DNA from: a virus
Lineage: Duplodnaviria > Heunggongvirae > Uroviricota > Caudoviricetes
Reading direction: 5' to 3' (one strand)
IMG/VR virus record: IMGVR_UViG_2778261559_000026
Length of the DNA stretch: 31,691 bases
Position 1 is the first letter of the stretch; each line of letters begins with the position of its first letter. Made by a program: the position numbers. This document shows, piece by piece, positions 24,901-27,900 of this stretch.

Positions 24901-27900
24901 TCAGTTTCTCTTCCAGATAATTCCAACGGTCAACCAGTTGGCGAGTAAATTCCGGTACGTTTTGAGCAATCAAGACAATCGAATCTAAGCGACCTTGCTC
25001 ACCCTCAAACACATAATCTTTAACAGTAACAGCAAACCCTAAGTTATTGATTTTCTCGAAATTCTGCGTTGCAGGTTTTCGGATAACTTGGCGTTCAACC
25101 AGTCGGTTCATAGAAGTTTCAAGGTTTGAAAAACGAACTCCAATAAGGTCGGCAATTTCACGAAGAGTCATTTTTGCAACTTCGTTATCAACAACCAGAG
25201 ACACGGAAGCAGTTTTAACAGCAGTATTCATAGTAGTAACAGTATTCATAGTAGTAATTCCCCTTAAACGGTTTTGCGATAATGATATTGATCCTCCTAG
25301 TTCCGGCAGCATCACCGGAACAATTTTATTTATAAGAAGTTTTTATCTCATTTAGATTCAGCAATCGCGCGATCAATTTCTTCTTGAATGCGACGCTGGC
25401 GTTCATGGAAGTCAACCATTGAGAAATTCAGGTTTGGGGTCCACGGTTTGCGGTTCGGGTTTTTGCGTCCATCAATTTTCTTAGTAGTGTTCATAATTAA
25501 CATCCTCTTTACAGTTCTAGGTCAAATATGATCAAGGTTGTCAAGTGCGATGATCATAAAAAAGTAAGAAATTTTTGTCAATACACCTTGACAAGACACC
25601 AAAGGGTTGACCTAACTTACAGAATATCTAAGCCTTCATCGTAACCGTAGAAGCCATTCTGAGAAGAGAAACAGATTGGTGCGTAGTCGTCGTCATCTTC
25701 GTCTTGTTCATCTTCTTCTGGGGCTTCCTGAGCGGTTTCTTTACCGTAGTTAAACATTGCTTCATCCAGTTCATAGACAGTAACGAAGCTACCCAGGTCA
25801 ATGTCACCGGAACGGACTTCAAACGGAAGATCATCACGAACAATAATTGCTGGTAGATTCTGGTACTTTAAGCGTTCTTCATCGGTGAAGACGTTAACAA
25901 CAATGGTCGGCTTCTTATTACGGTGGAAGGCATACCATGCACTAGAGAAATGAGATTCATCAGAGTTGAAAAGAATGTTGTGACCACGTTCACGGAACAT
26001 CTTCATTAACTTGTCATTGTGGAAGCTATCAGCATCAAAACCTAACAGGATGAAAGGAGTAGTGGTAGTCATTTTATGGTTCATAGTGGAAATCCTCTAA
26101 AAGAAAGTGAATCAATCTAATATTATTTATAAAGAGAAAATTCTTGTTATTATGAAAGGTGATTGTATTCAGTCGGGCAAAGCCCTCCTTCATGATTTGA
26201 TTAAATCATCATCAAAACGAAGAAGTATCTTTAGAATATAAGAATCTTTCTTTTGGAGAAATAATAATCAGGAAGCAATTTAGCAACCGAAGGTTGCAAT
26301 CCCGAAGGGATACCAATACCTTTCTAGAAAGTGATTGTTACTCACTTCGTTCGTTTACTAGAATCAGTTAGTAACTAGTATTAAATCCCTTTCTAAGAAA
26401 ATCCTTTCAAAAGTGATTCTCGATGCCACGCAGTGGCGTCGCAGACGTTTGAGAGTGAGCGAAGCGAGCGAGCAAACTAGTTAATTCCTTCTAAGACCAT
26501 CTAGTATCATCTAGTTTAAATTAGTTGTTACTAGAAGTAATTGGTTAGCGCTTCGCGCAGTCGGGCAAAGCCCTCCTAATATCTTTTTGGTTATTTTTGG
26601 TTTTACACATGAGCGTAGCGAATGTGTTATATAATATCTATGCACGCCGAATCCCCCGCCCTTACCCCTACCTAATTTAATGTTTTATAAAGAGTTTTTC
26701 TCACCAATCCTTTTCGGGGGAAAATTTCAGGGGCAAAAATTAGATTTTCAGGGGCAATTATTGGCATTTCAGGGGCAAAAATGAGGGGCAAAATCACTGT
26801 TTCCCAGAAATTTCAGGGGCAAAAATAGTAGGTTTCAGGGGCAAAAATAGGATAGTAGAATCTTGGGATTTTGTTCGGGGGCAATTCCCATCAAATATTT
26901 TGATAGAAAATTATTGTATATTATTTAACCACAAAATCACCAAAAAGTGGTTTAAGCTAATGATTTAAAAGGAATAATCAAAAGGTCTCCGTGCCATAAT
27001 AGGTTATAAAGGTTGATAATCCTAATCTACCATTTTCAAACAAAAATTTTGATAGTCACCTCTCGCTTAGATCATGTGTGTTGACATGTGTCAAGAACTA
27101 TTTTATGCTTTTTATCACTGGTAAGGGTTGAAATTTTCAAAACAATCCCCATATAGATGATAAGCATGATTTTTTCGTGTATAAATACATGCATGAAAAA
27201 TGATTGTTCACTTCTGAAAATCTCCTGACTCACTGTTAACTCATACAGCACTGGTTAGATATGCAGTGCTTTTTTCGGTTGAATATTGTACGGATTGATT
27301 AATTATTAATCTTCTCTTTAGCAATTCGTGCTCCCACTGATCGGATATACAGTGGTTTTGCAGGGTTTTTCGAAAAACATTTTATAAATAGAATTGTTCA
27401 GAGCGAAAAGCTCTTTTTTAAGATTTTTTAAACCTAACAATGAGGGATTAAAAATGGCTAAACCTGTACGATTCACACGAGAAGTATTACTCCCGATTGC
27501 TAAACGTTATTTTGAAGCGATGCAGGGTGACAAGCTGGCGGTTTTGAAGGAAGAAGGGATTGACCCCTCTGATTTTAGAAAACTGCTAAAACGATATGAC
27601 ATTAAAGTGAAGATTGAAGCTACCGTTTGGTAATCAACTTTGACTGAGAATTATATGATGGCTTTAAAAATAAAAAAGCCCCCTTGCGGCAACAAGGAGG
27701 CTTTTGCGATGAACAATTAAAACTAACTTTCCACAGGAGTATTTATAATGTTATTTTCCGCTAACTTTTTCACTAACGAAGTAACCAACGCTAAAGCAGT
27801 TATCAAATTTGGCACCGAAGCAAACAAGAAGATTCAGCCGAAAGTTGTTGCTCATGTTTCCTTTGCGCAGCAGAAATCCGCTTTCGCTGGCTTTAAAGCA

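What the first reader, a model, noticed from the sequence alone, without database searches (positions are those of the whole stretch)
25537..25614. Near-consensus sigma70 promoter embedded in TTGTCAA/TTGACAA palindromes; same box recurs at two other control regions
The minus-strand promoter TTGACA-17-TATGAT overlaps the inverted repeat TTGTCAA-N6-TTGACAA, with another TTGTCAAG just downstream. Related boxes occur at 27081-27094 (TTGACATGTGTCAA) and 30213-30220 (TTGTCAAG upstream of the DUF1311 gene). They may be operators for one element-encoded regulator, or simply -35 hexamers of divergent promoters.
Basis: seen in the sequence. Interest (0 to 1): 0.45.

Follow-up and report, generated by a model that had tools for sequence, protein, structure and literature searches.

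The report
Conserved operator-flanked prophage promoter
A strong promoter in an unstudied E. coli/Salmonella prophage family is flanked by extra copies of its own -35-like box that vary far less than the DNA around them, so they are most likely repressor-binding sites for an antirepressor-like operon; this is ordinary phage regulation in kind, and the regulator is still unknown.

Summary
The minus-strand promoter TTGACA-17-TATGAT (25581..25553) is the best sigma-70 match in the region.

The window is a roughly 30 kb E. coli prophage inserted in hicB. The promoter drives a small ORF plus a Rha/ANT-type antirepressor-like gene.

- **Conservation:** in 42 distinct E. coli-type copies of this spacer, the four non-promoter boxes vary at 4 of 32 columns against 43 of 62 elsewhere (Fisher 2e-7).
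- **Salmonella relatives:** their spacer is otherwise unalignable, yet it keeps the -35 box, the inverted box upstream and the box at the transcription start.
- **No -10 partners:** none of the extra boxes has one, so they are not divergent or tandem promoters.
- **The other two sites:** the box at 27081 (a second promoter) and the box at 30213 (upstream of terS) are also conserved across genera.

The boxes are best read as operators. The regulator is not identified. The first gene and the antirepressor-like protein's domains are swapped among relatives while the boxes stay fixed. The small HTH-like paralogues of 59, 74 and 200 aa are only weak candidates. This is a new member of a known kind, of moderate interest.

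The parts
25553..25581 (-). Core sigma-70 promoter: -35 TTGACA (25581-25576, 'box 3', read as TTGACAAA 25581-25574), 17-nt spacer, -10 TATGAT (25558-25553). The inferred transcription start is near 25546.
   Evidence: 11 of 12 positions, the best site in 23000-31691. TATGAT is invariant in 42 distinct copies, the -35 is nearly so, and the spacer is 16-17 nt. Salmonella relatives keep TTGACA-18-TAACAT preceded by TG. The start site is inferred, not measured.
25587..25594 (+). Box 2: CTTGACAA on the + strand (TTGTCAAG on the operon strand), about -48 to -41.
   Evidence: 1 of 8 columns varies and the GTCAA core is invariant. TGTCAAGG is kept in Salmonella; the gap to the -35 box is 6, 7 or 8 nt.
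25538..25545 (-). Box 4: CTTGACAA(C) on the operon strand, covering roughly +2 to +9.
   Evidence: the TTGAC core is invariant. Salmonella keeps TTGACAA 7 nt after its -10, and the offset from the -35 box (37 bp) is the same in both genera although the flanks differ.
25607..25614 (+). Box 1: TTGACCTA on the + strand (TAGGTCAA on the operon strand), about -68 to -61, 19 bp from box 2 and 3 bp after the stop codon of the 155-aa gene.
   Evidence: 0 of 8 columns vary in 42 distinct E. coli-type copies; absent in Salmonella relatives.
25518..25525 (-). Box 5: TTGACCTA on the operon strand, about +21 to +28, 19 bp from box 4.
   Evidence: 1 of 8 columns varies; absent in Salmonella relatives.
25348..25494 (-). 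First gene of the operon in this copy: a 48-aa basic protein (MNTTKK...) with Shine-Dalgarno AAGAGGA. This position is an exchangeable slot.
   Evidence: homologues only in E. coli and Shigella; replaced exactly at the ATG by a 110-aa gene (28 loci) or a 59-aa gene (2 loci); a 64-aa gene in Salmonella.
24416..25249 (-). Second gene: a 277-aa antirepressor-like protein with a variable N-terminal Rha or winged-helix-type domain and an ANT/KilAC-like C-terminal domain.
   Evidence: phrog_63 'anti-repressor Ant', E 1e-15. N-terminal domains are swapped among relatives (whole proteins 37-66% identical); the C-terminal domain occurs in two allelic types; annotated as Rha family / PF09669 in relatives.
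24386..24409 (-). Intrinsic terminator ending the operon.
   Evidence: 10-bp stem with 8 G-C pairs, followed by TTTTTT.
25617..26084 (-). Upstream co-directional gene: a 155-aa, very acidic protein (pI 4.3, charge -19). It is not a plausible DNA binder.
   Evidence: no family match.
27081..27109 (+). Second box-bearing promoter: TTGACA-17-TATGCT, with the inverted box TGTCAAG in its spacer (palindrome TTGACA-NN-TGTCAA, 27081-27094). It points towards the 59-aa and 318-aa genes.
   Evidence: 36 of 62 relatives keep TTGAC[AG]-NN-[TA]GTCAA with a variable centre, and Salmonella has -10 TATAAT; many E. coli copies also carry TAGGTCAAG-N4 upstream; 26 of 62 relatives instead have (C/A)TTGACAAT-type -35 (TTGAAA in some)-17/18-TATAAT with no inverted box.
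30213..30220 (-). Third site: CTTGACAA on the terS strand, about 245 nt upstream of terS, preceded by an A-tract and lacking a -10.
   Evidence: the core CTTGAC(A/C)A is kept at the junction with at least four different upstream modules, in E. coli and in Salmonella L035. Salmonella L036 has CTTGAC-ATTG-GTCAAG.
27454..27633 (+). Candidate regulator p59: a 59-aa basic protein, paralogue of p74.
   Evidence: 41% identical to p74; pI 9.6; 47-100% identical among relatives, and the putative recognition helix varies.
23888..24112 (+). Candidate regulator p74: a 74-aa basic protein with an RGRP arm, three helices and a beta-hairpin.
23250..23852 (+). Candidate regulator p200: a 200-aa basic protein whose C-terminal ~78 aa are paralogous to p74.
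   Evidence: 32% identical over the C-terminal ~78 aa; pI 9.3; 84-100% identical in E. coli relatives and 50-73% in Salmonella.

Best explanation
The region is the control region of a two-gene operon: an exchangeable small ORF followed by a Rha/ANT-type antirepressor-like gene. It sits in a roughly 30-35 kb temperate prophage family of E. coli and Salmonella that has no recognisable CI/Cro-type repressor.

**Proposed mechanism**
- A near-consensus sigma-70 promoter gives the operon high intrinsic strength.
- Extra copies of a CTTGACA(A)-type box lie just upstream of the -35 (box 2) and across the transcription start (box 4). The -35 hexamer itself is a third copy.
- In the E. coli lineage, a TTGACCTA box lies 19 bp outside each inner box (boxes 1 and 5).
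- A sequence-specific DNA-binding protein that occupies these boxes would cover the -35 and the start site and shut the promoter off. This is how antirepressor promoters are kept silent in lysogens.
- The same box at the promoter of the 59-aa/318-aa operon (27081) and upstream of terS (30213) suggests a small regulon.

**Shown**
- The promoter anatomy.
- Selective conservation of the boxes.
- Retention of the inner boxes across genera.
- Absence of -10 partners for the extra boxes.
- Independence of the boxes from the downstream genes.

**Inferred**
- That a protein binds the boxes.
- That it represses.
- Which protein it is. My order of preference is one of the small basic HTH-like paralogues (p74, then p59 or p200), then a host factor.
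For: **Promoter**
- 11 of 12 matches, the best site in the region. TATGAT is invariant in 42 distinct copies.
- Salmonella relatives keep a TG-extended promoter at the same place.

**Boxes are more than promoter hexamers**
- Five TTGAC within 95 bp is reached in 6 of 2000 shuffles.
- The four non-promoter boxes vary at 4 of 32 columns against 43 of 62 in the rest of the spacer (Fisher 2e-7), and their TTGAC cores are invariant (25 sequences gave the same result).
- Substitutions and indels fall between the boxes.
- The Salmonella spacer keeps TGTCAAGG, TTGACAAA and the start-site TTGACAA, with the same 37-bp offset, while everything else differs.
- No -10 partner exists at 16-18 nt for boxes 1, 2, 4 or 5 in either genus.

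**Position fits repression**
- The boxes abut the -35 and cover about +2 to +9. This follows from the coordinates.

**Recurrence**
- At site 27081 the arms are kept while the 2-nt centre varies, Salmonella included.
- The site 30213 box is kept at the junction of at least four different upstream modules.
- Four of five CTTGACA in the window are non-coding.

**Target operon**
- The second gene matches phrog_63 'anti-repressor Ant' at E 1e-15 and is annotated Rha family in relatives.
Against: - **No binding protein identified.** No family, structure or covariation result ties any protein to the boxes.
- **The conserved core is the sigma-70 -35 consensus.**
- **Geometry is not fixed.** The box 2 to box 3 gap is 6, 7 or 8 nt. 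The arrangement is everted here, convergent at 27081 and single at 30213, which does not suit one rigid dimer.
- **The regulon is not uniform.** 26 of 62 relatives lack the inverted box at 27081 yet keep the focal boxes.
- **The outer boxes are absent in Salmonella**.
- **No window-wide enrichment of the motif**.
- **Limits of the conservation test.** Box limits were set after seeing the sequence, and the compared sequences are related and recombining. The Fisher value therefore measures effect size and is not an exact probability.
Confidence: 0.55

Rival explanations
1. The boxes are read by RNA polymerase (sigma-70 region 4), not by a dedicated regulator. They would be -35 elements of divergent, tandem or alternative promoters, or extra polymerase-docking sites that tune a strong promoter.
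For: - The conserved core is exactly TTGACA.
- In 26 of 62 relatives the box at site 27081 is simply the -35 of a consensus promoter.
- Site 30213 has an UP-like A-tract in front of it.
- The string TGTCAAGGGG..TATTGACAAA turns up in 15 genomes of other phyla. By my reading of the flanks, many are back-to-back divergent promoters with good -10 hexamers on both sides.
Against: - In E. coli and Salmonella copies, none of boxes 1, 2, 4 and 5 has a hexamer with A2 and T6 at 16-18 nt. Only weak 19-nt options exist in E. coli and none in Salmonella.
- A divergent transcript from box 2 would run antisense into the 3' end of the 155-aa gene.
- Box 4 lies at the transcription start, where a -35 element has no known role.
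- The boxes are conserved more strictly than the working -35 hexamer.
Confidence: 0.2
2. The boxes are operators, but for a host transcription factor conserved between E. coli and Salmonella, not for a prophage protein.
For: - The boxes stay invariant while every nearby prophage regulator candidate varies or is swapped.
- The inner boxes are shared by E. coli and Salmonella relatives.
- From my own knowledge, the palindrome TTGAC-N4-GTCAA resembles the RutR box TTGACCAnnTGGTCAA.
Against: - No known E. coli factor that I can recall has this site. The RutR core spacing is 6, not 4, and the focal site is not convergent at all.
- The putative recognition helix of p74 is also invariant across both genera, so invariance does not exclude a phage protein.
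- Nothing was tested directly.
Confidence: 0.12
3. The symmetry acts at the RNA level. In transcripts reading through from the 155-aa gene, box 1 pairs with box 5 and box 2 with box 4, forming a processing or attenuation structure.
For: - The minimum-free-energy fold of 25625-25495 pairs exactly these boxes.
- Both arms have the same 19-nt internal spacing, which never changes.
- No terminator separates the two genes.
Against: - The fold is no more stable than shuffles (z = -1.25). The 5' UTR alone gives z = -1.17.
- No compensatory changes are available, because the boxes do not vary.
- The outer pair is missing in Salmonella.
- The same box recurs singly or in other arrangements at 27081 and 30213.
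- A nested inverted-repeat pair somewhere in the window arises in 13% of shuffles.
Confidence: 0.07
4. There is no function beyond the promoter. The extra boxes are chance copies conserved by recent common descent.
For: - The E. coli spacer is 85-100% identical overall.
- There is no window-wide enrichment of the motif.
Against: - Variation in the spacer is strongly non-uniform.
- The inner boxes survive in the otherwise unalignable Salmonella spacer.
- The local cluster is rare in shuffles.
Confidence: 0.04

Closest known systems
Phage P22 immI region (Pant promoter with the Mnt and Arc operators; arc-ant operon). Cited from my own knowledge, not from a tool.
   Same: - A strong constitutive-type promoter drives a small first gene and then an antirepressor-type gene.
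- Operator-like sites overlap the promoter.
- The expected role is to keep the antirepressor silent in the lysogen.
- The outer half-site TAGGTCAA resembles the Mnt half-operator as I recall it.
   Different: - There is no Arc- or Mnt-like ribbon-helix-helix protein. No family match was found, and the first gene is exchangeable.
- There is no divergent repressor gene. The upstream gene is co-directional and very acidic.
- The sites are scattered 7-8 bp boxes over about 100 bp and do not form two compact palindromic operators.
Aca-controlled anti-CRISPR/anti-defence operons: a strong promoter within inverted repeats, variable small first genes, and an HTH autorepressor encoded in the operon. 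The concept is from my own knowledge; PMC12658196 was consulted only for its oligonucleotide sequences.
   Same: - A strong promoter is embedded in inverted repeats.
- The first gene is a hot-swap slot replaced exactly at the start codon.
- A DNA-binding-type protein is encoded downstream in the same operon.
   Different: - Autorepression predicts that the repeats change with the regulator's DNA-binding domain. Here the N-terminal domain (four or more types) and the C-terminal domain (two types) change while the boxes stay fixed.
- No anti-defence function is shown for any first-gene variant.
Back-to-back divergent sigma-70 promoters
   Same: The string TGTCAA-N6-8-TTGACA is what two divergent -35 hexamers look like. 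Many of the matches to TGTCAAGGGG..TATTGACAAA in other phyla look like this by inspection of their flanks.
   Different: No -10 exists for the leftward hexamer in E. coli or Salmonella copies, and the leftward direction runs into the end of a convergent gene.
P2/P4 Ogr/Delta-dependent late promoters (TGT-N12-ACA dyad near -55). From my own knowledge.
   Same: TTGTCAA-N6-TTGACAA formally contains TGT-N12-ACA.
   Different: The dyad is centred near -38 and overlaps a consensus -35. P2-type late promoters lack a good -35 and carry the dyad near -55. No Ogr-like zinc-finger protein was seen.

Membership tests
Sigma-70 (housekeeping) promoter | -35 TTGACA-like and -10 TATAAT-like hexamers 16-18 nt apart, with A2 and T6 in the -10 | tested here: met
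   TTGACA-17-TATGAT, 11 of 12. Conserved in 42 distinct copies with a 16-17 nt spacer. Salmonella has TTGACA-18-TAACAT preceded by TG.
Sigma-70 (housekeeping) promoter | A transcript actually starts 6-8 nt downstream of the -10 | not testable with these tools
   No transcript data. The start near 25546 is inferred.
Repressor operator overlapping a promoter | Sequence elements other than the polymerase contacts, conserved above background and placed where a bound protein excludes polymerase | tested here: met
   Boxes vary at 4 of 32 columns against 43 of 62 elsewhere. The inner boxes are kept in Salmonella. The boxes sit at about -48 to -41 and +2 to +9.
Repressor operator overlapping a promoter | A cognate DNA-binding protein that binds the sites | not testable with these tools
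   Only candidates exist. p74 has weak HTH-like fold matches, and p59 and p200 are its paralogues. No covariation with any protein was found.
P22 immI-type arc-ant module | Antirepressor gene downstream of the promoter | tested here: inconclusive
   phrog_63 'anti-repressor Ant' at E 1e-15 over residues 30-170, and Rha family / PF09669 in relatives. No Pfam hit above threshold for the window protein. The function is untested.
P22 immI-type arc-ant module | The first gene is an Arc-type ribbon-helix-helix autorepressor | tested here: not met
   The 48-aa protein has no family match. It is replaced by unrelated 110-, 59- or 64-aa genes while the boxes stay unchanged.
P22 immI-type arc-ant module | A divergently transcribed Mnt-type repressor gene next to the promoter | tested here: not met
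   The upstream gene is co-directional, 155 aa, with pI 4.3.
Aca-type autoregulated anti-defence operon | The inverted repeats co-vary with the DNA-binding domain of the regulator encoded in the operon | tested here: not met
   The N-terminal domains are swapped (whole proteins 37-66% identical) and the C-terminal domain comes in two types, while the boxes are invariant.
LexA-controlled antirepressor promoter (as in phage 186 tum and the Gifsy phages) | A CTGT-N8-ACAG box overlapping the promoter | tested here: not met
   No match, even with one mismatch, within 25504-25616.
Divergent promoter pair | The inverted -35 hexamer has its own -10 at 16-18 nt on the other strand | tested here: not met
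   The best hexamers are CCTAAC (E. coli) and TTAGAG or TAGAGC (Salmonella). None has both A2 and T6.
RutR box (TTGACCAnnTGGTCAA) | Convergent TTGAC/GTCAA cores 6 nt apart | tested here: not met
   The cores are 4 nt apart at 27081 and everted at the focal site. The consensus is from my own knowledge.

The most novel reading that the evidence does not exclude
The CTTGACA(A) and TTGACCTA boxes are the operators of a previously undescribed lysogeny/antirepressor switch. It would be run by a family of small, basic, homeodomain-like HTH proteins (p59, p74 and the C-terminus of p200), each binding single asymmetric boxes. This switch would serve a widespread E. coli/Salmonella prophage family that has no CI/Cro-type repressor. 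The gene slot directly behind the promoter would be an exchangeable cassette for antirepressor or anti-defence functions.
Probability: 0.2. Interest if true: 0.55.

Novelty: new member of a known kind. Interest (0 to 1): 0.35.

Why it matters
This prophage family occurs in about 1% of complete E. coli genomes (58 of 5426) and also in Salmonella. It inserts into hicB or ycdX. It has no close cultured relative: the best terminase match is 43% identical. It also has no recognisable repressor.

The box-flanked promoter is the clearest handle on how the family is regulated. It gives a defined DNA bait of about 100 bp with five conserved boxes for fishing out the unknown regulator. It also marks a gene slot where different small genes are exchanged precisely at the start codon. 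If the regulator is one of the small HTH paralogues, that would define a new family of phage regulators.

In kind, however, a repressible promoter in front of an antirepressor-like operon is standard temperate-phage biology.

Tried and rejected
- **48-aa protein as Arc-like autoregulator: rejected.** It has no family match, homologues only in E. coli and Shigella, and is replaced at the ATG while the boxes stay unchanged.
- **277-aa Rha/ANT protein as autorepressor: disfavoured.** Both of its domains change type without any change in the boxes.
- **155-aa upstream protein as regulator: rejected.** Its charge is -19.
- **TATGATCA...TGATCATA inverted repeat around box 4:** present only in the window and one identical copy, so it is chance.
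- **Nested symmetry about 25566 as independent evidence: weak.** A place like it arises somewhere in 13% of shuffled windows, and it is absent in Salmonella.
- **RNA structure:** not significant. Rfam gives no match in 23000-31691.
- **LexA control of this promoter:** no box.
- **Ogr-type late promoter and RutR box:** the geometry does not fit.
- **Wider searches.** A protein scan of one genome per species found no relative. The DNA-pattern scan returned only unrelated genomes.
- **Literature.** Searches for a prophage at ycdX or hicB found nothing relevant. A search for the motif words found nothing relevant beyond oligonucleotide lists.
- **Near-identity searches** of the phage and plasmid collections were empty for 24300-27800.
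Full report
**1. What is there**

The window carries a prophage inserted in the host hicB gene. Positions 31341-31691 (minus strand) encode the N-terminal part of HicB. The left end of the window is a GntR-type host gene, as in the ydcR-hicB region of a related lysogen.

A complete relative in E. coli 266917_2 spans about 35 kb between the two hicB halves. Other family members sit in ycdX. The window copy has lost part of the tail-tip gene, the lysis genes and the start of the serine recombinase gene near 3785-3949.

The family is present in 58 of 5426 complete E. coli genomes. It is absent from the plasmid collection. Near-identity search of the phage collection with 24300-27800 found nothing. 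The terminase is at best 43% identical to that of any deposited phage. No CI/Cro-like repressor or replication protein was recognised in any library.

**2. The observation**

The 113-bp spacer 25504-25616 lies between a 155-aa gene and a 48-aa gene, both on the minus strand. Downstream follow a 277-aa gene (the true start is M23 of the 299-aa ORF) and a strong terminator at 24409-24386.

The minus-strand promoter TTGACA-17-TATGAT matches 11 of 12 positions and is the best site in 23000-31691. The perfect TTGTCAA-N6-TTGACAA palindrome at 25575-25594 and the third TTGTCAAG at 25538-25545 are as described. So are the boxes at 27081-27094 and 30213-30220.

Two further boxes complete the picture. 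TTGACCTA lies at 25607-25614 and its reverse complement at 25518-25525. On the operon strand the order, with positions relative to an inferred start near 25546, is:
- box 1: TAGGTCAA, about -68 to -61
- box 2: TTGTCAAG, about -48 to -41
- box 3: TTGACAAA, the -35
- the -10 hexamer
- box 4: CTTGACAAC, about +2 to +9
- box 5: TTGACCTA, about +21 to +28

Boxes 1 and 5, and boxes 2 and 4, are inverted pairs about the same centre, 25566. Each outer box is 19 bp from its inner neighbour.

**3. Chance**

Counted over the whole window the motif is not enriched. TTGTCAA occurs 7 times against 7.5 expected. TTGACMWA occurs 4 times against 6.5. TTGAC is depleted, 53 against 75.

The local cluster is unusual. 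Five TTGAC within 95 bp is reached in 6 of 2000 dinucleotide-preserving shuffles. Four of the five CTTGACA lie in the 13.8% of the window that is non-coding (binomial 0.0016).

The nested symmetry is weaker evidence. Some such place arises in 13% of shuffled windows.

**4. Comparative evidence**

I collected 69 related loci from four sources:
- IMG/VR contigs found with the 48-aa protein
- IMG/VR contigs found with the p74 alignment
- E. coli chromosomes
- Salmonella assemblies reached through p74 homologues

The 61 E. coli-type copies give 42 distinct spacer sequences. The four non-promoter boxes vary at 4 of 32 columns, and their TTGAC cores never vary. The rest of the spacer, leaving out the -35 box, the -10 and the Shine-Dalgarno, varies at 43 of 62 columns (Fisher 2e-7). 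An earlier set of 25 sequences gave the same result.

Indels occur only between boxes 2 and 3, a G-run giving gaps of 6, 7 or 8 nt, and in the promoter spacer. The 19-bp spacings never change.

In the Salmonella relatives the spacer cannot be aligned outside three elements:
- TGTCAAGG
- TTGACAAA followed by a TG-extended -10
- TTGACAA 7 nt after the -10, at the same 37-bp offset from the -35 box as in E. coli

The outer TTGACCTA boxes are missing there.

Two caveats apply. The box limits were drawn after seeing the sequence. The sequences are also related and recombine, so the Fisher value describes the size of the effect and is not an exact probability.

**5. Not divergent or tandem promoters**

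I treated each box as a -35 and scanned for a -10 at 15-19 nt. Only box 3 has a partner: TATGAT at 17 nt in E. coli and TAACAT at 18 nt in Salmonella. Boxes 1, 2, 4 and 5 have no hexamer with A2 and T6 at 16-18 nt in either genus.

For contrast, I searched one genome per species for TGTCAAGGGG(N0-2)TATTGACAAA. This found 15 loci in unrelated phyla. By inspection of their flanks, many are back-to-back promoters with good -10 hexamers on both sides. That is what the rival explanation looks like when it is true, and the prophage spacer does not look like that.

**6. The other two sites**

*Site 27081.* This is a plus-strand promoter, TTGACA-17-TATGCT. In 36 of 62 relatives it reads TTGAC(A/G)-NN-(T/A)GTCAA. 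The arms are conserved, the 2-nt centre varies, and a -10 lies 17 nt from the -35 (TATAAT in Salmonella). Many E. coli copies also have TAGGTCAAG 4 nt upstream. This reproduces the focal arrangement of an inner box followed 19 bp later by TTGACCTA. The other 26 relatives carry a different consensus promoter, CTTGACAAT-17/18-TATAAT with TG, and have no inverted box. Their focal spacer is unchanged.

*Site 30213.* The core CTTGAC(A/C)A is retained right at the junction with at least four different upstream modules, in E. coli and in Salmonella. It is preceded by an A-tract and has no -10 at any usable spacing. One Salmonella copy has CTTGAC-ATTG-GTCAAG.

So the box does recur at conserved control regions, but the arrangement differs from site to site.

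**7. Who binds?**

The downstream genes are poor candidates.
- **First gene.** It is replaced exactly at its start codon. Among E. coli-type loci it is the 48/50-aa gene in 30, the 110-aa gene in 28 and a 59-aa gene in 2. Salmonella has a 64-aa gene.
- **277-aa protein.** It matches phrog_63 'anti-repressor Ant'. Relatives are annotated as Rha family or PF09669. Its N-terminal domain occurs in several unrelated types, and its ANT/KilAC-like C-terminal domain in two types about 50% identical. The boxes do not change with either.
- **155-aa protein.** It is strongly acidic.

The basic proteins p59 (27454-27633), p74 (23888-24112) and the C-terminus of p200 are paralogues: 41% and 32% identity to p74. 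They share an RGRPxRF arm and a GIS..FYK-type helix.
- In p74 the stretch EHGISIAQFYK is nearly invariant across E. coli and Salmonella.
- p59 ranges from 47 to 100% identity, with changes in the corresponding helix.
- The AlphaFold2 model of p74 (pLDDT 74.7) has three helices and a hairpin.

This is suggestive only. A protein of that fold binding single asymmetric boxes would fit the variable spacing and orientation. Nothing ties these proteins to the boxes, and a host factor is not excluded.

**8. RNA alternative**

In a read-through transcript the minimum-free-energy fold pairs box 1 with box 5 and box 2 with box 4. It is no more stable than shuffles (z = -1.25). The 5' UTR alone gives z = -1.17. 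The boxes do not vary, so covariation cannot be assessed.

**9. Conclusion**

The promoter is real by every sequence criterion. The extra boxes are functional elements that are not promoters. Their positions are those of operators.

The most likely mechanism is repression of an antirepressor-like operon by a still unidentified DNA-binding protein that also touches two other control regions. This resembles the logic of P22 immI and, in its swap-slot architecture, Aca-controlled operons. The defining features of both were tested and not met: there is no Arc- or Mnt-type protein, and the boxes do not co-vary with the operon's own DNA-binding protein.

I file it as a new member of the general class of operator-flanked phage promoters.

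Noticed in passing
window 26712-26886: Five to seven iterons TTTCAGGGGCAAAAAT spaced 21-22 bp (once 44 bp), followed by an AT-rich stretch. They lie inside a 1.3 kb region with no convincing ORF (26085-27453). This looks like a replication origin or another protein-loading site. The region is conserved in relatives.
   Followed up: partly
window 26170-26189 and 26558-26577: A perfect 20-nt direct repeat, CAGTCGGGCAAAGCCCTCCT, 388 bp apart in the same non-coding region. Each copy contains a GGGC-AAA-GCCC hairpin.
   Followed up: no
window 27233-27248: A perfect LexA-type box, CTGTTAACTCATACAG, about 150 nt downstream of the 27081 promoter and just before a terminator-like hairpin (27244-27275). 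In at least 24 relatives the CTGT/ACAG arms are kept while the centre varies. This may link the 59-aa/318-aa operon, or a roughly 160-nt RNA, to the SOS response.
   Followed up: partly
window 25495-25503 (the junction at the start codon of the 48-aa gene): Homology between relatives breaks exactly at the ATG. The same promoter and Shine-Dalgarno drive unrelated first genes of 48, 110, 59 or 64 aa. This is a precise cassette-exchange point.
   Followed up: yes
window 3785-3949: The overlapping ends of a truncated tail-tip ORF (599 aa here, 1217 aa in a relative) and a serine recombinase ORF with a TTG start (470 aa here, 559 aa in a relative) mark a deletion. It removed the lysis genes, so this copy is probably defective.
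   Followed up: partly
window 12101-14489: Part of the 1142-aa tail-fibre gene is 79-87% identical at the DNA level to the distal long-tail-fibre gene (gp37 type) of T-even phages of E. coli, Shigella and Yersinia. This points to horizontal exchange of a receptor-binding module between a temperate and a virulent lineage.
   Followed up: no
window 6050-6823: A 257-aa ORF with NUMOD3 motifs (homing-endonuclease type) sits among the tail genes. It is not annotated at the corresponding place in the relative L001.
   Followed up: no
window 29415-29969 versus 21256-23163: The small and large terminase genes are separated by about 6 kb of regulatory, non-coding and oppositely oriented genes. This is an unusual layout and is conserved in E. 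coli and Salmonella relatives.
   Followed up: no
window 23250-24112 and 27454-27633: Three paralogous copies of a small basic domain (RGRPxRF...GIS..FYK) occur per prophage. The family was found only in E. coli, Shigella and Salmonella and has no family assignment.
   Followed up: partly
L063 (IMG/VR contig 2548876944_000013): One relative lacks the promoter spacer and the first gene altogether. In it the antirepressor-like gene follows the 155-aa gene after a hairpin.
   Followed up: no
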